A stretch of 64,000 nt of DNA from a virus. Its lineage: Duplodnaviria > Caudoviricetes. A program made the translations under genes and the position numbers. The notes under the pieces were generated by a model, which saw only the letters and a list, made by a program, of their open reading frames with translations, ran no database searches and had not been told where the DNA came from. Positions 29,382 to 47,625 of the stretch are shown piece after piece. Every line of letters starts with the position of its first letter. Position 1 is the stretch's first letter. Location of the stretch: the IMG/VR virus record IMGVR_UViG_3300025679_000005. One strand, 5' to 3'.

Positions 29382-30632
29382 ATGAAAATTCGTACCACAG
29401 TCGAGAATCTGAACCAAGCGTTCGAAATAGCGGGCATCGTCACGCCGAAGTTGAAGAACAACTCGGACGCAGCTTTTCTGATCGCCAACCATGGGGGCAA
29501 GCTGTATGTACACTCCCACGACGGGATTCGTGCAACTCGAACTGAGCTTAAGTTCGACTCCTTAGAGGGCGAAGGTGCCTTCGCGTTCCCCAACGACAAA
29601 GTCGGCTCTCTCAAGTACGTGGACGGTTGGATTGAACTGGAATCCGGTCATGACGATAAGCGCCATTGGGTCAAGTACACTACAGAAGGTGGCGCCAAGG
29701 TAGACATCGCCTCCTACGACCCAGACGCCTACGCCACCCTCGTGCGAAATCTTAGCGAGACCACTGAGGAGCGCCTGTACCTCACGGCCATTCTTCGGGA
29801 CGCCTTCAAGACGGTCTTCGGGTTCACCCCAAGGGGCACCGACAAGGATAAGGCTCCGGACTTTTACAGCACCTTACAGATCTTCGACGCCAGTAAGCCC
29901 GAGTGGTTAAGCGGCGACGGTGTGATGCTGGGGGCTGACGGTACCCGGGCAGCCTTTTTCTCATGTGAGGCTTTGAAGGGCAAAGGCCTTGGGGTGCATA
30001 CTGATCACCTCTCGTACCTTACAGATTTCTTGGCCAAATGCGGCCCAACGGTCAAGGTGAAGTTCGGGGAAGCCATGAACTTCCTGATTGAGCTTATCCC
30101 TGAAGAGGATGGTACCTTCACCGAGGGGGCCGTCATTGGTTGGGTGAGCCATGTCACGACACACGCTAAGTACAAGTACTACGCCACTAGTGAGGACCAC
30201 GCTGTTCTGATGGTGCCCAGGGACATGATGGTGAAGTCTCTGAGCCATATCAGATCCCTGCTCTCTGGGAATCAGCCTAAGATTCGTTTGATTTTGAAGG
30301 ACGGCTTCTTGAACTTCAAGTCAAATGACGGAGGCAACAGCCTGACAAGCGCTCCTGTAGGGGTGGACCTTCTCGCCTTGGATGATAAGTCTCCGTCGGT
30401 GGCAGGATTTGAGTGCAATGCCGACGCAGACCGGCTGGTGGACCTGTTCTCTTCTGCGAAAGGGCATGAAGTCGAGTTCCGCATTGCTCTAGTAGCTGAG
30501 AGCAAGCATCACAAATCAGGGGCCTTCTTTCGGACCTTCGATCGTTTCCGCTTGAATACTGAGGGTGCCGTAGTCATCTCTCCTGAGGACTCCTACGAAT
30601 GCCTAGTGACTCGATTCACGCCTTCGGTGTGA
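29382..30632 (+). CDS. dnaN: DNA polymerase III beta-clamp-like protein
   Basis: MKIRTTVENL...LYVHSHDG...GEGAFAF...ASYDPDAY; three-domain alpha/beta periodicity; genome also has holA, holB and dnaX. Confidence 0.7.
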   Translation: MKIRTTVENLNQAFEIAGIVTPKLKNNSDAAFLIANHGGKLYVHSHDGIRATRTELKFDSLEGEGAFAFPNDKVGSLKYVDGWIELESGHDDKRHWVKYTTEGGAKVDIASYDPDAYATLVRNLSETTEERLYLTAILRDAFKTVFGFTPRGTDKDKAPDFYSTLQIFDASKPEWLSGDGVMLGADGTRAAFFSCEALKGKGLGVHTDHLSYLTDFLAKCGPTVKVKFGEAMNFLIELIPEEDGTFTEGAVIGWVSHVTTHAKYKYYATSEDHAVLMVPRDMMVKSLSHIRSLLSGNQPKIRLILKDGFLNFKSNDGGNSLTSAPVGVDLLALDDKSPSVAGFECNADADRLVDLFSSAKGHEVEFRIALVAESKHHKSGAFFRTFDRFRLNTEGAVVISPEDSYECLVTRFTPSV

Positions 30633-31276
30633 GGGTCAAGAACGCGGAAGCTGCGGCTACTCGGCTGGTTACCTTGAAAGGCAGGGTAACCGCCGAGCTT
30701 GCAGCTAAAGAAGCGGAGGTGACTCACCTTGACCAAGAGATCGAAATCCTGGGCAAGGTGGTAGAGCTTTTTCGCGTTCTGCTGGATCAGCTCGTCGAGA
30801 AGCAGGTGCGATCCGTCGAAAAGGTCGCAACCGAGGGCCTTCAGACGATTTTTACAGACCAGATTCTCAGCTTGGAGTCCGAGGTGGCCCCCAAGCATAA
30901 CAAGATCTCCGTGGATTTCTTCGTCCGTAGGGGTCTCAAGGGCAGCCCACGGTCACATCGGGGGAAGCCCCTGGAAGCTTTCGGCGGCGGGCCTGCCACG
31001 GTCATATCCTTGATTCTGAGGGTATTGGCGGTAAAGCGTTTGAACCTTTGGCCGGTACTAGTCTTGGACGAGTCTCTGGGCGCCGTGTCTGATGAGTATG
31101 TCGACCATACTAGTCAGTTCCTACGGGGTATTGCTGAAAAGCTGGGTTTCGACCTGCTTTTGGTCACCCACAAGCCCGCCTTCAAGGAATACGCACATAA
31201 TGTGTACCGTTGCTCCGAAGCCTTCGAGGAAGACGGTGTAACATCCTTCCTGGTAGTGAAGAAGGTACCCTCTTGA
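30629..31276 (+). CDS. SbcC/Rad50-like ATPase, C-terminal half
   Basis: Coiled coil, degenerate signature AFGGG, Walker B LVLDESL, H-loop LVTH; GTGA-coupled start. Confidence 0.85.
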   Translation: MRVKNAEAAATRLVTLKGRVTAELAAKEAEVTHLDQEIEILGKVVELFRVLLDQLVEKQVRSVEKVATEGLQTIFTDQILSLESEVAPKHNKISVDFFVRRGLKGSPRSHRGKPLEAFGGGPATVISLILRVLAVKRLNLWPVLVLDESLGAVSDEYVDHTSQFLRGIAEKLGFDLLLVTHKPAFKEYAHNVYRCSEAFEEDGVTSFLVVKKVPS

Positions 31277-33619: not shown

Positions 33620-35011
33620 GTGTGGGACATCAAGTATCGCCCAGTACGTTTCAGTGACGTACTGGGGCAGGAGAGTACCGCCCAGATTCTCAAGTTACGA
33701 CTGACTAAGGGGACTGCCTTTGACACGTCGTACATCTTCAGCGGTGGTCACGGTCAAGGTAAGACGACTTTGGCACGTATTCTGGCTAGATCCATGCTTT
33801 GCACGGATCTTCAGTCAGACGGCGAGCCCTGCAATGTCTGTGATATGTGCAAGGAAGTCCTCGCAGACGCCAACCCAGCCTTCACTGAAACTGACGCGGC
33901 CTCTAACGGCACCATCGACCATATACGGAAGATCGTTAGCGACCTTCCGTTCGCGATCAAGGGGGCTGACAAGCGCATATACCTCTTCGATGAGATGCAT
34001 CGCATGGGTCCTGCTTCCCAGGATGTCTTGCTTAAGCCCATAGAGGACAAGAAGCTGGTCGGTATTTTTTGCACAACAGAGGCTGTGAAGATTCGAGGGA
34101 CTATCCGTTCCAGGTGTGAAGAGTACAAGATCCGCAACATCACTAGGGAGGACATCCTTGGTAGGATGCGGTTGATCCTGACCCAAGAACAGATCGAATT
34201 TGAAGAGGACGCGGTCCTCACTGTTATTGACCATTCCCATGGGCATGTCCGGGATGTGGTCAATAAGCTGGAGATGATCGCCCAATTGGGGCCTATTCGA
34301 CTTGAAGCAGTAAGAGAATACTTGAGTTTGTCTGTGGTTTCGATGTACTATGAGATCTTACTCTCATTAGGAAATCCGGCAGTCGCTGTCAAACTAGCTG
34401 AAACTGCCTGTGATCAAGTAGGTCCTGACGCAGTCTACGAAGGTTTGGCAGAAGCAGCCATGACATCCTACCGGATGGCCAACCGTATGTATGTGGACTA
34501 CACCTATGTGGACAGGATCTTGGCTGATAAGGTGCAAGCTCAATACAAGGACGCCTTGTTGCAGCTAACTGAGCACTTTGTGGCCGCACCCCCTAAGGCA
34601 GGGCGGATCCGCCTCCTGTGTGACATTCTGGCTTGCTCGACTGGTGTTCCCTCCAAGGCAGTGGTTACCAAAGTACAGGTCCAGGTGGCGGCTCCCATTA
34701 TCTTGGACAGCCCACCAGTGCCCGTCCTAAACCCCCCTCAGCTGGCAGTAGCAGTGCTGGCTGACCTCATAAAACCCCCCTCCATACCTTCTACTGAGCG
34801 CACCTCAAAGGTAGGCAACTTGGGTTCTGACGATGCTTGCGCACTCACATCGTTGGATGAAAAAGCGATACGCCAGGACATGCCTAGGGGCACCTCGGAA
34901 AGTGTGAGGCCCTCAAAGGATGTCCCCAAAGGTAAAGCGGACCTGCTGACGCACGACGAGTGGAGTCGTGCTATCTATCAGAGGATGGATATTTTTGGTA
35001 TGGGGGTCTAA
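33620..35011 (+). CDS. dnaX: Clamp loader gamma/tau subunit
   Basis: KYRPVRFSDVLGQ, GGHGQGKTTLARI, C...EPCNVC..C, YLFDEMH, TIRSRC, GHVRD. Confidence 0.93.
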   Translation: MWDIKYRPVRFSDVLGQESTAQILKLRLTKGTAFDTSYIFSGGHGQGKTTLARILARSMLCTDLQSDGEPCNVCDMCKEVLADANPAFTETDAASNGTIDHIRKIVSDLPFAIKGADKRIYLFDEMHRMGPASQDVLLKPIEDKKLVGIFCTTEAVKIRGTIRSRCEEYKIRNITREDILGRMRLILTQEQIEFEEDAVLTVIDHSHGHVRDVVNKLEMIAQLGPIRLEAVREYLSLSVVSMYYEILLSLGNPAVAVKLAETACDQVGPDAVYEGLAEAAMTSYRMANRMYVDYTYVDRILADKVQAQYKDALLQLTEHFVAAPPKAGRIRLLCDILACSTGVPSKAVVTKVQVQVAAPIILDSPPVPVLNPPQLAVAVLADLIKPPSIPSTERTSKVGNLGSDDACALTSLDEKAIRQDMPRGTSESVRPSKDVPKGKADLLTHDEWSRAIYQRMDIFGMGV

Positions 35012-36813
35012 TGGGCGAGTCTTGGGTAGTACTGGAACTCAGTTCGCGAAGCGATCAGGAGGATCCTGATGTGGTTAAAGCGGCAATCGTCCGTTCATTG
35101 AAACGAGCCGAGGTGTTCATACCTGCGGCAGTGACACAGATAGGTGAGGATCGCTCTGTGCACGTTTTGATGGAAGGGTATGCCTTCGTGCGCCTTGACC
35201 GCGCTCCCCAGGACTACTTTAGGCTGGAGAATACCAAGTACGTCCAAGCTGTACTGGCTTTACCTGGGGCTAATGGACGCCACCGCAAGCTCTCAACCGT
35301 AGACGACTCCGCCATTGCGAAGATGAGGGAGCAAATACGATTGCTGGTGGACCAGGGGATCAGCGTGGGGGATACCGTACGTATCACCTCTGGGCCATAC
35401 CGTAACATGCAGGCGGAAGTGGTGGAGGAGATACCCGAGGAAGGGAAAGTGCAGGTTTACATCAAATTGCGCTCCAAGCAGAGCCTGGTGGCATTGCCCA
35501 GGTCTTTCCTAGTGGTGGTCGAACGCGCACCTCTGTCGACAGTCAGTGGGCGCATCAACGTTTTGCGGGATTGGGCCTTAGCCGCACACCCTATAATCAA
35601 GTGGACCGCCGACTGGGCCTCTTTGGAGAAAGCGTATAAGCAGTATGCCAGGGTAGAGACACTACGTCGGCAGATGGCGCTCCTTATCGAGACGCGCATT
35701 TTCGATATCACCTATCCCAAGGAACTGGCTGATTTATCGAACAGGTGTCAGGTGGTGGGTGCCCTCCAACGGTGGGAGACTCAAATACGTCTCCTGGAGA
35801 GTTACATCGGATTCTATCAGGGAATTCCCAGCGGGGAAGACTTGGCTACGGCCCACGGCAAGGTAGCGGAGTTGCTCTGGATTGACGAAGTCCTTGGAAA
35901 GATACGCTCGCTCTGGGAGGATGTTGAGAGCATATCCAGGGCTTTAGCTCACAGGCAGGAAAAAGAGATGGTCGAAAACGTGATTGTAGATGGGCACAAT
36001 CTAGCCTGTCGTTGTGCCTATGCCCCTGGGATCTCCAATTTGATGGACAGTCAAGGGCGCCCAACAGGGGTGATTATCGGCTTCCTGCGTAGCCTGGGCT
36101 CTTTGAAGAAGCGCTACCCCGACGCAGTCCTCTACGTCACCTGGGACGGTTCCTCGAAGCGGCGCCGGGCTAGATTTTCTGAGTACAAGGCCCAACGCAA
36201 CTCGATTCCTCCGGATATCAGGGTCTTGAAGGAACTACTCCCTTTGGTTGGAGTTCGTCAAGCTTGGAATCCTGACGAAGAGGCGGACGATGTCATTGCT
36301 ACTTTGACGCGCCGTGACTTGGCCAAGCAACGAAATGTGATGTTCTCGACCGATAAAGATTTACTGCAATTGGTCAATGACGAGACTTCACTTCTGATCC
36401 CGCCGGTCGGGTCGCGCAACGAGATCCTGTTTGACCCGACTACTGTTCTCGAAGCAGTGGGGGTAGCACCCTCTAAAATGGTGCAATTAAGAGCTTTCTA
36501 CGGGGACACCTCGGACAATATCCCTGGCGTCCCTAGGGTACCTAAGAAGGTCCTCCGTTCGTTAGTCCAAGCACACGGCTCTGTAGAAGCAGTCTACAGG
36601 TCAGGACTCACAGGGTTGACCAAGGGTCAATATGAGAGGTTGCGCAGTGCCGAACCTCAAGTCAAAATAAATGTGGAGCTGATGTCTCTGGTGGACGTGG
36701 TTGTCGAAGTCACCATGCCAGACACGGATCCTAATGCCGCTGCCTCAATCCTAACGGAATATGAGATACAGCCGGGTAGTTTGCTAGAGACGTTTTTTAG
36801 GAGGTCCCTGTAA
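35011..36813 (+). CDS. Fusion of NusG-like NGN+KOW, a helical linker and a 5'-3' exonuclease (FEN/PolI-like)
   Basis: LMEGYAFVR; ISVGDTVRITSGPY; VIVDGHNL, VTWDG, EADDVIATL, STDKDLLQL, GDTSDNIPGV. Possible internal ATG at 35968. Confidence 0.88.
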   Translation: MGESWVVLELSSRSDQEDPDVVKAAIVRSLKRAEVFIPAAVTQIGEDRSVHVLMEGYAFVRLDRAPQDYFRLENTKYVQAVLALPGANGRHRKLSTVDDSAIAKMREQIRLLVDQGISVGDTVRITSGPYRNMQAEVVEEIPEEGKVQVYIKLRSKQSLVALPRSFLVVVERAPLSTVSGRINVLRDWALAAHPIIKWTADWASLEKAYKQYARVETLRRQMALLIETRIFDITYPKELADLSNRCQVVGALQRWETQIRLLESYIGFYQGIPSGEDLATAHGKVAELLWIDEVLGKIRSLWEDVESISRALAHRQEKEMVENVIVDGHNLACRCAYAPGISNLMDSQGRPTGVIIGFLRSLGSLKKRYPDAVLYVTWDGSSKRRRARFSEYKAQRNSIPPDIRVLKELLPLVGVRQAWNPDEEADDVIATLTRRDLAKQRNVMFSTDKDLLQLVNDETSLLIPPVGSRNEILFDPTTVLEAVGVAPSKMVQLRAFYGDTSDNIPGVPRVPKKVLRSLVQAHGSVEAVYRSGLTGLTKGQYERLRSAEPQVKINVELMSLVDVVVEVTMPDTDPNAAASILTEYEIQPGSLLETFFRRSL

Positions 36814-37470
36814 ATGAGCAACGGCTATGTTATCCCCATTGATCCCGCAGAACTAGCCAACCGTTTCTCATACGAGGACCCCCTCTTTGACGATGAGGAT
36901 GAGGAAATAGACGAGGACCTCGTGACCAACGTCAGTGCCGACAGCTTGTCGGACTACTTTTCTGACGGGGACTACGAGAGTCGCATTGCCCCACTCCTGG
37001 ATCGAATACCCGAGCGCGAAGCTGACCTCATCTATCTGTACTTCATCGAGAAGAAGCGTCAGGCGGACATCGCCACCATCTTCGGTGTGACCCAGGCCGC
37101 CATCTCCTACCGCCTGGACCGAGGTATCAAGCGTCTCAAGTTCCTCCTATCGATTCCCCAGCTGACCAAAGAAGAGCTGGAGGCCGACCTTCCATCTGTT
37201 TTCCCCCAGAAAATAGATGTCGACATCCTGATTGGTATGTGGGCCACCACCTGCCAATCAGAGGTCGCCTCCAATTTAGGGTTGACCCAGGGACGAGTCC
37301 GCCACCGCTTCTTCAAGGCCGTCAAGACTCTGGAAGAGGCGGCCCTGAAGGATGAGAGGTATGTACCCTATCAGAAGATCTTTTCCACAATAGCGGAAAA
37401 AAGATTCAACATCCTGAGAGAGGTACGTCTCCCCCAATGGCAAGACCGCGGAGGAGATGAGTGTACTTGA
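36814..37470 (+). CDS. Sigma-factor-like protein with two region-4 HTH domains
   Basis: IPEREADLIYLYFIEKKRQADIATIFGVTQAAISYRLDRG and TCQSEVASNLGLTQGRVRHRFFKA; no region 2. Confidence 0.8.
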   Translation: MSNGYVIPIDPAELANRFSYEDPLFDDEDEEIDEDLVTNVSADSLSDYFSDGDYESRIAPLLDRIPEREADLIYLYFIEKKRQADIATIFGVTQAAISYRLDRGIKRLKFLLSIPQLTKEELEADLPSVFPQKIDVDILIGMWATTCQSEVASNLGLTQGRVRHRFFKAVKTLEEAALKDERYVPYQKIFSTIAEKRFNILREVRLPQWQDRGGDECT

Positions 37471-37517: not shown

Positions 37518-37545
37518 TTGCTACATGGGTGTGATGTGCTAAGAT
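37518..37545 (+). promoter_or_regulatory. sigma70-like promoter with extended -10 (TTGCTA-N16-TAAGAT, TG at -15/-14)
   Basis: TGcTAAGAT at 37537-37545; the predicted start site falls at the ATG 37551. Confidence 0.5.
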
Positions 37546-37550
37546 CACCT

Positions 37551-38660
37551 ATGTATTTTAAGCACAACCTTAGTCAGACCCCTGAATACAAGTGCTGGCA
37601 GCAGATCAAGTCTCGTTGCTTGAATCAAGACCATCGGGCGTACCCCAACTATGGCGGCCGAGGGATCATGATTTGTCCGGAATGGCTGAACGACTTTGAG
37701 TCATTCTATGCTTACGTGGGGCCGCGCCCGACTCCAAAGCATTCTCTAGACAGGTTCCCAAACAACGATGGGGACTACGAGCCTGGAAACGTACGTTGGG
37801 CAACCTGGGACGAACAGGTGGTCAATAGAAGGCCACACGGAGAGGGCAACACCTTGCCTCCTAGGCCCAGGTCTGAAAAAGTCACCAACTTCAAGCATGG
37901 CCTGATAGGTCGCCCGGAATATAAAAATTGGTCTGCGATGAAGGATCGCTGCCTCAATGAGAGTAGCTCGAACTACCCACATTGGGGTGGTAAAGGAGTC
38001 AAGGTGCATCCGGAATGGATCCACGACTTCGTAGCTTTCTTTCAATACATGGGGCCTAAGCCTACGCCCCAGCATTCATTAGACAGGTTCCCGAACAAGG
38101 GCGGGAACTACGAGCCAGGCAACGTTAGGTGGGCCACGAAGCGTGAGCAGAACCTGAATAGGCATGCATTTGTTACAGGCCCAGCCCACGGTAACCATGG
38201 TCACGGGGGCGTAGGCACTCCCGAGTACAAGGCTTGGACAAGCATCAAGACTCGCTGCTTCAACCCAAATCACGATGGCTACGCTGCATACGGGGCGTTG
38301 GGCATTACCATGTGTCAACGGTGGAAAGATGACTTTCCGGCTTTTATCCAGGACTTGGGACCCAGGCCTTCAGAGGGTCACGTGGTAGGACGTACCGACC
38401 TCGCTGCTTCCTATTCTTGTGGTAAGTGCGAGGAGTGCCTTGCGAAACAGTGGCTGTCCAATTGCCAGTGGACTTTGAGGAGCCTAGCTCAGAACCGCAA
38501 CCGTCGCTCAAACAAGCTGACCTTTGAGAAGGCGGAGTTGATCCGGCAACGATTGTCGGACGGGTGCACCTACAAGGCCGTAGCCGAAGAGTTTGGGATT
38601 GGGGTTTCGCTGGTCGGGAAGATCAAGTGCGGGGATATCTGGGCCCGCCCCACCCCGTAA
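37551..38660 (+). CDS. Homing-type nuclease with three tandem HNH-like units and a C-terminal HTH
   Basis: Three copies of TPEY..W..(I/M)K.RC.N...Y..YG..G......W..DF..F....GP.P....; first two retain SLDRFPN..G.YEPGNVRWAT. Confidence 0.85.
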   Translation: MYFKHNLSQTPEYKCWQQIKSRCLNQDHRAYPNYGGRGIMICPEWLNDFESFYAYVGPRPTPKHSLDRFPNNDGDYEPGNVRWATWDEQVVNRRPHGEGNTLPPRPRSEKVTNFKHGLIGRPEYKNWSAMKDRCLNESSSNYPHWGGKGVKVHPEWIHDFVAFFQYMGPKPTPQHSLDRFPNKGGNYEPGNVRWATKREQNLNRHAFVTGPAHGNHGHGGVGTPEYKAWTSIKTRCFNPNHDGYAAYGALGITMCQRWKDDFPAFIQDLGPRPSEGHVVGRTDLAASYSCGKCEECLAKQWLSNCQWTLRSLAQNRNRRSNKLTFEKAELIRQRLSDGCTYKAVAEEFGIGVSLVGKIKCGDIWARPTP

Positions 38661-44262: not shown

Positions 44263-47200
44263 GTGGCTGAGAAGAAACGAGAGGGGCTGGTCAATCTAGT
44301 CCGGAACGCCAACCAGAAGGTCAAAGCCACTCAAGCTGTGGCCACCAATTCAGGTGCGGGTGGTGGCGGCCTAGGTGGCGGCCCCAAGATCTTCAGTGTG
44401 CTCGAATACATCGAGCAGCCTTGGGGTTTGGCAATGAACCTATACCCTGCCCAGCGCTTCCTGGTGAAGCTCTATTACAATCTGGAGCTGGACACCAAGA
44501 TCCCTGACGATCCTAACAAGCGTATCCAAGTCACGGACATGCTCAAGACCAAGATCCTGTACGAGCTGTCTGAGAGGGATTACCTGACATACCTCTTCAA
44601 TGAGGGCCGGTGCAATATCGGGGAGCAGGATCACGACCGACGTGAATTGGTGCTTTCCATCGGTAGAAGAGGGGGTAAATGCGTCTGTGGGGATACCCTC
44701 GTATTGACGAATGACGGCATTCGTCAAATAGCTGATTTAGGGACGGCCCTTGAGGACGGCTTTTCGCCCTTGGAATTAGGAATAGTCCAAGAAGCAGGCA
44801 AGAGGTCCACTTCCGCTGCATTCTACAACGGGGGAGTTAAACCGACTTTCTCAGTCAAAACAGACTCTGGGTACAGCCTCAAAGGGACGGGCCCCCATCG
44901 AGTTAAAGTGCTGACTAAGACAGGTAAAGTCGAATGGGTCTACCTGGATCAACTACAGGTAGGCGACTTCGTAGCGATCAACCGCTCGACTGACCTATGG
45001 GCGGCCAAATTGATGGATTTACGCCCGTTTCACAATGAAACGGGTCGTAAGGACGTTAGACTACCGGAGCTGTTAGACGAGCGTTTAGGCAACTTCATCG
45101 GTTACTTGGTTGGTGACGGCACTTGGGGAGACGACCACGCCGTATCTGTGACAGTGGAGCACCCAGAGACGTGGGCTTACTTGAAGGAAGCCTTTCAGAC
45201 ATTGTTGGGGGAACCCAGAGTCCAGATGGACGAAAGAACTGTAAACACCGGGCGCCTAGAGTTCTGTAGCGTCAGGGCCCGAAGGTTTTTTGACGATATT
45301 GGCTGGAAGCAGGATTGTGCGAGAGATCAGAAGATGATCCCTTGGTCTATTCTTCAGTCGCCGAAGTCCGTCGTATGCGCCTTCTTGAGAGGTTTATTTG
45401 AGACAGATGGGTGTGCCGAGAGTGGTGGTCGAAGCATCACTTTCTCATCAGCTAGCTTTCGGTTGGCCCATGAGGTTCAGATTGTGCTGCTGAATCTAGG
45501 TATCGTCTCGAACGTAGCCCGTAAGTGGAACTCAAAGACAAAAAAACACTATGCTAATTTGAGGGTCAAAGGCACGAGGTCTAGACGCCTGTTCGCTCAA
45601 TTGATAGGTTTCGATTCAGATAAGAAGCGCCTGCCAATGCTGGCCTCTTTGGAACTTGCTCAAGAGGGTAAGTCTGACACAGAGAGCATTCCACATCAGT
45701 ACTCGGCAATTCGAGATTGGCTGGAGTCAATACCCAAGGCGGGGCCTGGAGCTGGGCACAGGCGCTCTAGGCTAAGGGATGTCTTAGCCAACACCTGTAA
45801 GCCTAGTTCAGGTGAAGATCTGACCTACCCACGGCTGGCCAAGGCAATCAGTGTGGCTAAGGAAATGGGGGCAGGGGAACAGGAAACAGCCCACTTCGAA
45901 GAGTTGGCCAGATTGGACTACTTCTACGATGCCGTGACCTCAGTAGAACAAGGGGAAGACCAGGTTTATGATTTGACCGTACCTGATGGGGAGGCATTCG
46001 TTGCGAATGGTATGACCAATCACAACACAACTCTGTCGGGAATCTTCGCTTCCTACGAGGTGTACCGACTTCTTAATCTGTACAATCCCCAGGAATACTA
46101 TGGCCTGCCTAACGGCAACCGTATCCAGATCATCTCGGTAGCTACGGACAAGGACCAGGCAGGACTGCTCTTCAACGAAGTGGCCTCCCATATCGTGAAG
46201 TGCGAGTACTTCAAGCCGCATACAGCGTCCAATACCCAGACGTTTTTGAACTTCCGCACGCCTTACGACATCGAGAAGTTTGGTACTGATGTCCGCAACG
46301 GGGATGGCAAATACCAGTCCTTGAACGGTAAGGCCACCATCCGCGTCACCTTCAAGGGTGCAAACGGCAAGGGGCTCCGTGGTGCAGGTAACGTCGTTAT
46401 CATCCTCGACGAGGTTGCCCACTTTCTTGACAAGGGTGGGGGCTCTGCCGAGGAAGTGTACGGTGCCGTAGTGCCCTCATCGGCTGCCTTCTCCAAGAAG
46501 GATCAGAAGACTAAGCGTGCTTTGATTGATCCGATTACGGGCATAGAAGCCCCTGTGGAGAGCAGGGTCATTCTCATCTCATCTCCCTTGGGCAAGTCCG
46601 GCTTGTTTTACGACAAGTTCGATCTGGCTATGCGTGGCGGTCCCGGAGCACACAACATCCTTGCTATCCAGGCCCCTACCTGGGAGATCAATCCGACGGT
46701 CCCCTCCTCCTACTACAAGGAGAAGTACCACGCGAATCCGATCACCTTCGTGACTGAGCACGGCGCTCAGTTCAGCGATCAGGTACGTGGTTGGATTGAG
46801 CGTGAGTCGGATCTACAGGCCTGCATCAACCCAATACTACAGCCCAAACTAGCTGGGACCCCCAGGTCACCCCATCAAATGGGAATCGACGTAGGCCTTG
46901 TAAACGACGGTACAGCCATCGCCATTACACACGTTGAGGGGGACAAGATCGTCCTCGACTACCATGAAATATGGTATGCTGGAGAGAATTGGCGTGAGGC
47001 TAACCCGCATCTGGACTTCAGTGTGGCGACAGACTACGCCAAGAGCCTGGGGAATGTCCAGCGCATCGACTTTGATGCCATCGGGGAATGGATCTTGGCT
47101 CTGTGTAAGAGATTCCACATCACCGCCGGCATCTTCGACCGTTGGAATGGCATCCCCTTGGAGCAGTTCCTGCACAAGCACGGTCTGAAGCAATTCACCT

Positions 47201-47625
47201 CGGATTTCTATACTAGAGACAACACTAGTAAGATGTACCAGACGGTGAAGGAATTCATGTATGACGAGAAGTTGGAGTTGTACGACTTCCCGATTCCTGA
47301 GCGTGCCAAGGATGGCAGCAAGCATTCGCCATTGATCGCTGAGCTTTTGACCCTGCAAGCTGAGCAAATAAGCAAGAACATTGTGACCGTTCAGGCCCCC
47401 AACAAAGTTGGAGCCCACGACGACTTGAGCGATGCCTTGATTCGATCCATCTGGCTGAGTTCGGAAGTCATGATGAATCGAAAGCACACGGCCCACGGTC
47501 AGGCTTACCGCCCAGCGGTGGCTTCGGCCATGACCCCTCAAAGGTACCAGATGTCCCGCATGCTCAAGCATGGTGGTGGCGGAGATCGCAGTCTAAGCGG
47601 CCGTCGCCCAATTAGGCAGAGGTAA
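44263..47625 (+). CDS. Terminase large subunit with intein (about 671 aa after splicing)
   Basis: Reconstituted Walker A GRRGGK|TT; Walker B IILDEVAHF; ISSP; nuclease motifs GIDVG and HDDLSDAL. Confidence 0.93.
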   Translation: MAEKKREGLVNLVRNANQKVKATQAVATNSGAGGGGLGGGPKIFSVLEYIEQPWGLAMNLYPAQRFLVKLYYNLELDTKIPDDPNKRIQVTDMLKTKILYELSERDYLTYLFNEGRCNIGEQDHDRRELVLSIGRRGGKCVCGDTLVLTNDGIRQIADLGTALEDGFSPLELGIVQEAGKRSTSAAFYNGGVKPTFSVKTDSGYSLKGTGPHRVKVLTKTGKVEWVYLDQLQVGDFVAINRSTDLWAAKLMDLRPFHNETGRKDVRLPELLDERLGNFIGYLVGDGTWGDDHAVSVTVEHPETWAYLKEAFQTLLGEPRVQMDERTVNTGRLEFCSVRARRFFDDIGWKQDCARDQKMIPWSILQSPKSVVCAFLRGLFETDGCAESGGRSITFSSASFRLAHEVQIVLLNLGIVSNVARKWNSKTKKHYANLRVKGTRSRRLFAQLIGFDSDKKRLPMLASLELAQEGKSDTESIPHQYSAIRDWLESIPKAGPGAGHRRSRLRDVLANTCKPSSGEDLTYPRLAKAISVAKEMGAGEQETAHFEELARLDYFYDAVTSVEQGEDQVYDLTVPDGEAFVANGMTNHNTTLSGIFASYEVYRLLNLYNPQEYYGLPNGNRIQIISVATDKDQAGLLFNEVASHIVKCEYFKPHTASNTQTFLNFRTPYDIEKFGTDVRNGDGKYQSLNGKATIRVTFKGANGKGLRGAGNVVIILDEVAHFLDKGGGSAEEVYGAVVPSSAAFSKKDQKTKRALIDPITGIEAPVESRVILISSPLGKSGLFYDKFDLAMRGGPGAHNILAIQAPTWEINPTVPSSYYKEKYHANPITFVTEHGAQFSDQVRGWIERESDLQACINPILQPKLAGTPRSPHQMGIDVGLVNDGTAIAITHVEGDKIVLDYHEIWYAGENWREANPHLDFSVATDYAKSLGNVQRIDFDAIGEWILALCKRFHITAGIFDRWNGIPLEQFLHKHGLKQFTSDFYTRDNTSKMYQTVKEFMYDEKLELYDFPIPERAKDGSKHSPLIAELLTLQAEQISKNIVTVQAPNKVGAHDDLSDALIRSIWLSSEVMMNRKHTAHGQAYRPAVASAMTPQRYQMSRMLKHGGGGDRSLSGRRPIRQR
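44680..46026 (+). mobile_element. Intein (449 aa) with LAGLIDADG endonuclease, inside the terminase Walker A
   Basis: CVCGDTLV ... FVANGMTNHN|T; FIGYLVGDG and FLRGLFETDG. Confidence 0.95.

What the first reader, a model, noticed from the sequence alone, without database searches (positions are those of the whole stretch)
35011..36813. NusG-like transcription factor fused to a flap/5'-3' exonuclease
Seen: one frame carries NGN, KOW, a ~150-aa linker of ~38-aa helical repeats (YPKELADL, IPSGEDL; similar in style to the SbcC N-arm repeats) and a complete FEN domain. An in-frame ATG at 35968 with AGGA upstream could also give a free exonuclease. Known: NusG paralogs bind the RNAP clamp; FEN removes RNA primers. 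I know of no characterised fusion. Inference: it couples transcription to replication or R-loop processing, for example replication-dependent late transcription, and it directly precedes the sigma-4 protein.
Basis: partly seen in the sequence, partly recalled or inferred. Interest (0 to 1): 0.68.

Follow-up and report, generated by a model that had tools for sequence, protein, structure and literature searches.

The report
Huge-phage NusG-like factor fused to flap nuclease
An uncultured huge phage joins a copy of NusG, the factor that rides on RNA polymerase, to its only DNA flap nuclease in one 600-residue protein, and a conserved internal start codon suggests that a free nuclease is made as well; this points to an untested link between phage transcription and DNA replication that I found in no paper.

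Summary
ORF 35011-36813 (600 aa) encodes NGN and KOW domains (a NusG/RfaH/Spt5 fold), a ~150-aa four-helix linker and a PolI-type 5'-3' flap nuclease with all nine acidic residues invariant. The linker helices are not sequence repeats.

More than 130 metagenomic relatives (38-90% identity) keep the fusion, on phage contigs up to 512 kb. It always lies between a DnaX-like clamp loader and a protein with two sigma region-4 domains.

- **Internal start.** The ATG at 35968 is conserved as a start-capable codon in 33 of 33 distinct fused junctions. It is the real start of the nuclease gene in lineages where the gene is split.
- **Three architectures.** They are fused; NusG-like and nuclease as adjacent genes; and a third clade with a stand-alone NusG-like gene next to sigma-4 and no detectable nuclease. 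The conserved core is therefore clamp loader, NusG-like, sigma-4.
- **No phage polymerase.** Complete relatives lack canonical RNA polymerase subunits, so the host enzyme is the likely target.

The mechanism is inferred, not shown. This scan reported the same fusion earlier on at least eight other genomes. No paper found describes it.

The parts
35011..36813 (+). Whole gene: NusG-like, helical linker and flap nuclease, 600 aa
   Evidence: Open frame. More than 120 full-length homologues. 47 fused loci in IMG/VR.
35011..35349 (+). NGN domain (residues 1-113)
   Evidence: phmmer against 2lq8 NusG, E 3e-5. VIA against RfaH NGN in a transcription complex (8pen_P): Z 9.9, rmsd 3.3 over 97 aa. The GYxFV strand is invariant. 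pLDDT is above 90.
35350..35523 (+). KOW domain (residues 114-171)
   Evidence: Pfam KOW 23.6 bits, above the 22.3 cut-off. VIA against T. maritima NusG KOW (2xhc): Z 11.2, rmsd 1.3 over 56 aa. This is the most conserved part, mean column identity 0.66.
35524..35967 (+). Helical linker (residues 172-319): four long helices, then a flexible hinge at 313-318
   Evidence: AlphaFold helices 176-196, 202-232, 236-270 and 275-321. Least conserved part, column identity 0.27, length 145-172 aa. No internal sequence repeat. Absent from the L053-57 and LR745208 clades.
35957..35970 (+). Candidate internal translation start: AGGA (35957-35960), 7-nt spacer, ATG (35968-35970) = Met320
   Evidence: Sequence. 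A start-capable codon lies 5-9 codons before VDG in 33 of 33 distinct fused junctions: 27 ATG and 6 GTG, against a null of 9% and 28%. The same codon starts the nuclease gene in split forms L050, L049 and L047.
35968..36813 (+). PolI-type 5'-3' exonuclease / flap endonuclease domain (residues 320-600)
   Evidence: Pfam PF02739 and PF01367, both above cut-off. phmmer against the M. smegmatis Pol1 and Taq 5'-nuclease domains, E 1e-27. Foldseek against FenA 6c33, TM 0.77. D327, D379, E424, D426, D427, D448, D450, D499 and D502 are invariant.
36814..37470 (+). Neighbour: protein with two sigma-70 region-4 domains and no region 2
   Evidence: Pfam Sigma70_r4, 1e-14, two stretches. It lies directly downstream in every locus of all three clades.
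33620..35011 (+). Neighbour: DnaX-like clamp loader, whose stop overlaps the start of the fusion gene
   Evidence: Pfam DNA_pol3_delta2 1e-22 and phrog_5846 9e-51. It lies upstream in all loci.
29382..30632 (+). DnaN-type beta sliding clamp, same gene block
   Evidence: Profile of 16 homologues against PDB: 1vpk DnaN 2e-8 and 8dt6 beta clamp 6e-6 over positions 1-311.

Best explanation
**Shown.** The gene encodes a two-module protein. The N-terminal NGN-KOW module belongs to the NusG/Spt5 superfamily but to none of its named subfamilies. A helical linker follows, and then a catalytically complete PolI-type flap nuclease, which is the only such nuclease in complete relatives. The gene sits in a strictly conserved block: primase, metallopeptidase, clamp loader, this gene, double sigma-4. 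That block lies at the border between the replication genes and the packaging and structural genes.

**Inferred.**
1. The NGN domain docks on the clamp helices of the host RNA polymerase, as every studied NusG relative does. These phages have no canonical polymerase of their own.
2. It acts together with the neighbouring double sigma-4 protein as this phage group's own transcription module.
3. In the window's clade the full-length protein tethers the flap nuclease to transcribing polymerase. There it could trim RNA or DNA flaps and RNA-DNA hybrids where transcription and replication meet on a ~450-kb, largely one-strand genome.
4. A conserved internal start at Met320 also yields a free 281-aa nuclease for ordinary Okazaki-fragment processing.
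For: - **Domain identity:**
- **Conservation of the fusion:** more than 120 full-length homologues; 134 fused proteins in all; 47 fused IMG/VR loci on contigs up to 512 kb.
- **Single copy:** both the nuclease and the NusG-like module occur once in four 94-100%-complete relatives.
- **No phage polymerase:** no beta' or beta subunit in those genomes, with controls positive.
- **Fixed neighbours:** clamp loader upstream and sigma-4 downstream in all three clades.
- **Internal start:** conserved in 33 of 33 junctions. GTG appears whenever ATG is lost, although GTG makes up only 27% of Val codons. The same codon is the nuclease start in split lineages.
- **Flexible hinge:** low-confidence residues 313-318 just before Met320.
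- **Split form is inherited:** the L047+L049 pair has 95/97 support, so it is not an assembly error.
- **Gene orientation:** nearly all genes of the window lie on one strand.
Against: - No experiment and no complex prediction shows binding to RNA polymerase. The NGN match to curated NusG models is below cut-off.
- The covalent link is dispensable in some lineages.
- A third clade keeps NusG-like and sigma-4 with no detectable nuclease. The NusG-like function therefore does not need the nuclease.
- Gene order is conserved over 13 genes, so adjacency alone is weak evidence of coupling.
- Shine-Dalgarno-like motifs before Met320 are no commoner than the local amino-acid composition predicts: 11 observed, 8.8 expected, p 0.19.
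- Divergent phiKZ-type polymerases could escape the Pfam searches.
Confidence: 0.45

Rival explanations
1. Fusion of convenience. The NusG-like factor (an antiterminator or late-transcription factor working with sigma-4) and the flap nuclease (a replication enzyme) act independently. Neighbouring genes merged when a stop codon was lost. The internal start keeps a free nuclease available, and the full-length form adds nothing mechanistic.
For: - Split and fused forms coexist within one clade.
- A third clade has NusG-like and sigma-4 without any nuclease.
- The internal start is conserved.
- The linker is the least conserved part.
- Synteny of the whole block is rigid anyway.
Against: - The fusion has persisted through divergence down to ~38% identity in more than 130 proteins.
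- The ~150-aa linker is always helical and is kept on the NusG piece in split forms, so it is more than a spacer.
- Its first and last helices carry conserved residues, such as W188 and the ELxWxDxVLxRI stretch.
Confidence: 0.3
2. T4-like, replication-coupled late transcription built from different parts. The nuclease domain docks on nicks, flaps or the phage beta clamp on replicated DNA. The NGN domain occupies the beta' clamp-helix site (the site used by sigma region 2 and T4 gp55). The double sigma-4 protein occupies the beta flap (the site used by T4 gp33). RNA polymerase is thereby recruited to replicating DNA to switch on the late genes that begin just downstream.
For: - The gene lies at the border between replication genes and terminase or structural genes.
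- A phage beta clamp and clamp loader lie in the same block.
- In T4 the FEN-type rnh gene is directly followed by dsbA and by gene 33, both late-transcription factors.
- Two of four complete relatives show no sigma region-2 gene.
Against: - No clamp-binding motif was identified. The conserved C-terminal NPxxILExFFG lies inside the nuclease fold.
- NGN domains are known as elongation factors, not initiation factors.
- The third clade manages without the nuclease.
- No late-promoter motif was sought or found.
Confidence: 0.17
3. RNA 'torpedo' or terminator. The polymerase-tethered 5'-3' nuclease degrades nascent RNA from its 5' end, either to terminate transcription or to shut off host transcripts.
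For: The architecture places a 5'-3' exonuclease on an elongation factor.
Against: - PolI-type 5' nucleases are structure-specific DNA or RNA-DNA flap enzymes, not processive single-strand RNases (established knowledge of the family).
- This is the phage's only flap nuclease, so it is needed for replication.
- Nothing tested here supports RNA degradation.
Confidence: 0.05

Closest known systems
Specialised NusG paralogues (RfaH, LoaP, UpxY) and housekeeping NusG/Spt5
   Same: It has the two-domain NGN + KOW fold, and the conserved GYxFV strand of the polymerase-binding face. It is encoded in a mobile or horizontally acquired context, like the paralogues, and sits inside the long operon it may serve.
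   Different: Scores fall far below every curated subfamily cut-off: nusG 31 against 135.7, UpxY 20 against 100, RfaH 20 against 144.5, LoaP 18 against 125. It carries a 150-aa helical extension and a nuclease. A review of NusG diversity mentions no nuclease fusion (PMC7819879). No recruitment element is known.
PolI-type 5'-3' exonucleases / bacterial flap endonucleases (Pol I N-terminal domain, M. smegmatis FenA, E. coli ExoIX/Xni, T5 D15)
   Same: The sequence, fold and all metal-binding carboxylates match. In complete relatives it is the only member of this family.
   Different: It is fused at its N-terminus to a transcription factor, not to a DNA polymerase, and it is not stand-alone.
Phage T4 late-transcription machinery (gp45 clamp, gp33, gp55) with the neighbouring rnh gene
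   Same: In T4, transcription factors that bind the beta' clamp helices and the beta flap are tied to the replication clamp. The T4 FEN-type rnh gene lies directly beside dsbA and gene 33. Here the nuclease lies between a NusG-like gene and a sigma-4 gene, close to the clamp and clamp loader.
   Different: There is no sequence relationship to gp33 or gp55. The clamp here is DnaN-type. No clamp-binding motif was found. The T4 proteins are separate, not fused.
phrog_6386 'transcription antiterminator' (phage NusG-like proteins)
   Same: Residues 52-154 match at 2e-8. Stand-alone 160-190-aa relatives exist at E 1e-12 to 1e-21, including the LR745208 clade.
   Different: Those are stand-alone proteins and, as far as the searched papers show, uncharacterised.

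Membership tests
NusG/Spt5 superfamily | NGN domain fold | tested here: met
   Foldseek top hits are all NusG/RfaH/Spt5 with probability 1.0. VIA against RfaH NGN gives Z 9.9 and against NusG NGN Z 8.2. phmmer against 2lq8 gives E 3e-5 over residues 6-163.
NusG/Spt5 superfamily | KOW domain following the NGN domain | tested here: met
   Pfam KOW scores 23.6 bits, above the 22.3 cut-off. VIA against the 2xhc KOW gives Z 11.2, rmsd 1.3.
NusG/Spt5 superfamily | Pfam NusG (PF02357) gathering score | tested here: not met
   20.1 bits against a cut-off of 22.2. The miss is narrow, and the fold evidence compensates.
NusG/Spt5 superfamily | Binding to the RNA polymerase clamp helices | not testable with these tools
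   No complex prediction or assay was available. Only the conserved GYxFV strand could be checked.
Housekeeping NusG (TIGR00922) | Equivalog cut-off | tested here: not met
   31.3 bits against 135.7.
RfaH / LoaP / UpxY paralogues | Curated model cut-offs | tested here: not met
   RfaH 20.4 against 144.5; LoaP 18.1 against 125; UpxY 20.4 against 100.
PolI-type 5'-3' exonuclease / flap endonuclease | N-terminal resolvase-like domain and C-terminal H3TH domain | tested here: met
   PF02739 scores 102.7 bits (cut-off 34.3) and PF01367 scores 51.9 bits (cut-off 40). Foldseek against FenA gives TM 0.77.
PolI-type 5'-3' exonuclease / flap endonuclease | Full set of metal-binding carboxylates | tested here: met
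   D327, D379, E424, D426, D427, D448, D450, D499 and D502 are invariant in 42 sequences. They align with the VDG, EADD, DKD and GDxSDN motifs of Taq and M. smegmatis Pol I.
PolI-type 5'-3' exonuclease / flap endonuclease | Flap or 5'-exonuclease activity | not testable with these tools
   This needs an enzyme assay.
T4-type clamp-coupled late transcription | Clamp-binding motif on the transcription factor | tested here: inconclusive
   The phage has a DnaN-type clamp. The only conserved C-terminal motif lies inside the nuclease fold. No QL[SD]LF-like motif was identified.
T4-type clamp-coupled late transcription | Homology to gp33 or gp55 | not tested
   Only the gene order in T4 was checked.

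The most novel reading that the evidence does not exclude
The NGN domain and the neighbouring double sigma-4 protein together replace a sigma factor on host RNA polymerase. NGN takes the sigma-2/gp55 site on the beta' clamp helices, and sigma-4 takes the beta flap. The fused flap nuclease anchors this complex to nicks, flaps or the phage beta clamp on replicating DNA. Late transcription would then be licensed by replication: a T4-like logic invented independently from a universal elongation factor and a replication nuclease.
Probability: 0.12. Interest if true: 0.88.

Novelty: new variant of a known kind. Interest (0 to 1): 0.64.

Why it matters
NusG/Spt5 is the only transcription factor conserved in all life, and its known partners are the ribosome, Rho and RNA-processing factors. 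A natural and widespread fusion to a DNA-replication nuclease would add DNA replication or repair to that list.

The family offers a ready-made experimental handle on replication-transcription encounters and on late-gene control in huge phages, whose regulation is almost unknown. Its three natural states (fused, adjacent genes, no nuclease) and the conserved internal start make clear, cheap predictions for proteomics and biochemistry.

Tried and rejected
1. **Linker repeats.** Pairwise local alignments of the four helices give z from -0.7 to 1.7 against shuffles, so there is no sequence repeat. Similarity to the SbcC-like arm is z 2.0.
2. **C-terminal NPxxILExFFG as a clamp-binding or PIP-like motif.** It is conserved (LxxFF in 74 of 119). 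It forms a confident helix (588-596) inside the PolI-type nuclease fold and is not at the extreme C-terminus, so I did not accept it.
3. **Shine-Dalgarno selection before Met320.** The motif is enriched against other internal ATGs (38% against 7%, Fisher p 2e-5). It is not enriched against synonymous resampling of the same residues (11 against 8.8, p 0.19). There is therefore no nucleotide-level proof.
4. **First reading of Met320.** From the MAFFT alignment I first took Met320 as unconserved. That was an alignment artefact, corrected by anchoring on the VDG motif.
5. **Promoter and terminator scan, 29-42 kb.** Counts did not exceed shuffles.
6. **Cultured phages (INPHARED).** No full-length relative appeared, only nuclease halves and one uncultured 485-kb record.
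7. **ESM Atlas search with the linker.** No usable hit. The VIA wide search list was filled by the KOW domain, so the linker fold remains untested.
8. **Profile search for stand-alone NusG-like loci.** The alignment was too divergent for the tool.
10. **T7-type RNA polymerase search.** No hits, but the control was silent too, so this is uninformative.
11. **Literature.** Seven searches combining NusG with phage, flap endonuclease, exonuclease, jumbo, huge or megaphage found no description of the fusion.
Full report
**What is there.** The window belongs to a 155-kb IMG/VR virus record judged about 32% complete, so the phage is expected to exceed 400 kb. ORF 35011-36813 on the + strand encodes 600 residues. 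Its ATG overlaps the stop of the upstream clamp-loader gene (TAATG). Its stop is followed at once by the start of a sigma region-4 gene at 36814. The N-termini of relatives support ATG 35011 and not the upstream GTG at 34960.

**Domains.**
- Pfam finds a complete PolI-type 5'-3' exonuclease: PF02739 at 324-483 (2e-29) and PF01367 at 485-571 (1e-13).
- Pfam also finds a KOW motif just above cut-off and an NGN match just below it.
- The N-terminal half alone aligns with T. maritima NusG over both domains (2lq8, residues 6-163, E 3e-5).
- Against 1.8 billion representative proteins, the N-terminal half hits first ~65 fusions of ~600 aa, then stand-alone 160-190-aa NusG-like proteins at 1e-12 to 1e-21.
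- An AlphaFold model of residues 1-322, built on 35 sequences (pLDDT 87), retrieves only NusG, RfaH and Spt5 structures at the top of a Foldseek search.
- VIA-align gives Z 11.2 (rmsd 1.3 over 56 aa) for the KOW domain against T. maritima NusG. It gives Z 9.9 for the NGN domain against RfaH bound to a transcription complex.
- NCBIfam places the protein in no curated subfamily: nusG 31 bits against a cut-off of 135.7, with RfaH, LoaP and UpxY weaker still.
- The nuclease half aligns with the 5'-nuclease domains of M. smegmatis and Taq Pol I at about 1e-27. Its model superposes on M. smegmatis FenA (TM 0.77).
- All nine acidic residues of the two metal sites are invariant in 42 aligned sequences.

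**Linker.** Residues 172-319 form four long helices, followed by a low-confidence hinge at 313-318. This is the least conserved part, with column identity 0.27 against 0.51-0.66 for the domains. They share no detectable sequence similarity.

**Conservation and context.**
- More than 120 full-length homologues (47-90% identity, 591-639 aa) exist in public metagenomes, some on contigs of 300-475 kb.
- IMG/VR holds 56 loci, on contigs up to 512 kb, several with terminal repeats.
- A 13-gene order is conserved in all of them: beta clamp, Rad50-like ATPase piece, two unknowns, primase, metallopeptidase, clamp loader, this gene, double sigma-4, an occasional HNH endonuclease, then three unknowns. 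The large terminase follows further on.
- In four 94-100%-complete relatives, both the nuclease and the NusG-like module are single-copy.
- Those relatives have no canonical RNA polymerase beta' or beta subunit, with positive controls.
- Only two of the four show a sigma region-2 gene.

**Three architectures.**
1. *Fused:* 47 of the 56 IMG/VR loci, plus one cut by a contig end, besides the window itself.
2. *Split within the same clade:* L047, L049 and L050 carry an NGN-KOW-linker ORF and a nuclease ORF in another frame, overlapping by a few codons. In a maximum-likelihood tree of the nuclease domains, L047 and L049 are sisters (95/97) and L050 lies elsewhere. The split is therefore inherited and arose more than once. 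L047 has an A7 run at the junction, so slippage or a base-calling error cannot be excluded for that one locus.
3. *Adjacent genes:* a deep sister clade (L053-L057, 27-30% identity) has a ~170-aa NusG-like gene without any linker. A separate nuclease gene follows directly, with an ATGA overlap or an 8-nt gap.

A further clade, found through the one INPHARED hit (LR745208.1, 485 kb) and five IMG/VR relatives, has the order primase, metallopeptidase, clamp loader, stand-alone NusG-like (207 aa), sigma-4. It has no nuclease between them and none detectable anywhere in the records, one of which is 92% complete. The invariant core is thus clamp loader, NusG-like, sigma-4. The nuclease is an addition, or was lost in that clade; the direction was not rooted.

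**Internal start.**
- Met320 (ATG 35968) has AGGA 7 nt upstream.
- Anchoring on the invariant VDG motif, all 33 distinct fused junctions with DNA available carry an in-frame start-capable codon 5-9 codons upstream. There are 27 ATG and 6 GTG, against 9% (ATG) and 28% (any start codon) for random five-codon windows of the same genes.
- Where Met is replaced, a GTG valine codon is present, although GTG is only 27% of valine codons.
- The same codon is the actual start of the nuclease gene in the split forms L050 (ATG), L049 (GTG) and L047 (ATG, one codon further upstream).
- Among 134 fused proteins, position -6 is Met in 51 and Val in 47, and position -7 is Met in 15.
- Shine-Dalgarno-like motifs precede this codon in 38% of junctions, against 7% for other internal ATGs and 63% for true starts. 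Synonymous resampling shows that the local Gly/Glu/Lys/Arg-rich sequence explains this.
- I conclude that a second, free nuclease product is likely but unproven.

**Mechanism.** The domain identities, the conservation and the context are shown. The following steps are inferred.
- The NGN domain binds the host RNA polymerase. This is the universal property of the family, and the phage has no canonical polymerase.
- It works with the double sigma-4 neighbour.
- The full-length form places the phage's only flap nuclease on transcription complexes, while the short form serves lagging-strand maturation.

One alternative direction is that the nuclease or the clamp recruits the polymerase to replicating DNA for late transcription, as in T4. 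That reading draws some support from position and from the T4 gene order rnh-dsbA-33. No clamp-binding motif was found, however. A fusion without mechanistic meaning remains a serious rival, because split and nuclease-free lineages exist.

**Novelty.** None of seven literature searches found the fusion. A review of NusG diversity mentions neither nuclease fusions nor phage-encoded members (PMC7819879). JGI's automatic names ('5'-3' exonuclease/transcription antitermination factor NusG') show that pipelines see both halves.

This scan has already reported the same fusion on at least eight other genomes. My tests agree with those notes on the single-copy nuclease, the sigma-4 neighbour and the fused-or-adjacent pattern. 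They add the conserved internal start, the inherited split lineage, the nuclease-free third clade, the DnaN-type clamp and the T4 gene-order parallel.

Noticed in passing
window 37518-38660: An HNH endonuclease gene with three tandem copies of a ~110-aa unit (phrog_3377, 2e-89, three stretches). It sits between sigma-4 and the next conserved gene in only some relatives (L006, L012, L041-43; remnants in L014, L030, L052), so it looks like a mobile insertion.
   Followed up: partly
window 44263-47625: The large terminase subunit is interrupted by an intein with a LAGLIDADG endonuclease (Pfam Intein_splicing and LAGLIDADG_3).
   Followed up: no
L059 3164-5050 (LR745208.1): The clamp loader of the nuclease-free clade is 628 aa. 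It carries an insertion right after the Walker-B-like LFDEC motif that ends in HN, which looks like an intein.
   Followed up: no
window 29382-30632: A 416-aa protein with no Pfam or PHROG hit is a DnaN-type beta clamp by profile search against PDB (1vpk 2e-8). It lies between the Mre11/nuclease genes and a Rad50-like ATPase piece (30599-31276).
   Followed up: partly
L047 about 3630-3660: The junction of the split form contains an A7 run. Losing one A would restore the fused frame. This could be a base-calling error, transcriptional slippage or a genuine split.
   Followed up: no
L054-L057, C-termini of the separate nuclease genes: The separate nucleases of this clade end in a shared short tail, [ED][SD]WLxD[IL]-like (for example ESWLSDIID, ESWLLDLD, DDWLLNI; L053 ends differently). 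It recalls the lineage-specific C-terminal tags noted elsewhere in this scan for huge phages. The window's own protein has no such tail.
   Followed up: no
proteins P0183, P0202, P0216, P0220, P0232, P0237, P0254, P0260: Other proteins carry the same NusG-like module at their C-terminus, behind 50-320 residues of unknown N-terminal sequence. The module is therefore fused to other partners elsewhere.
   Followed up: no
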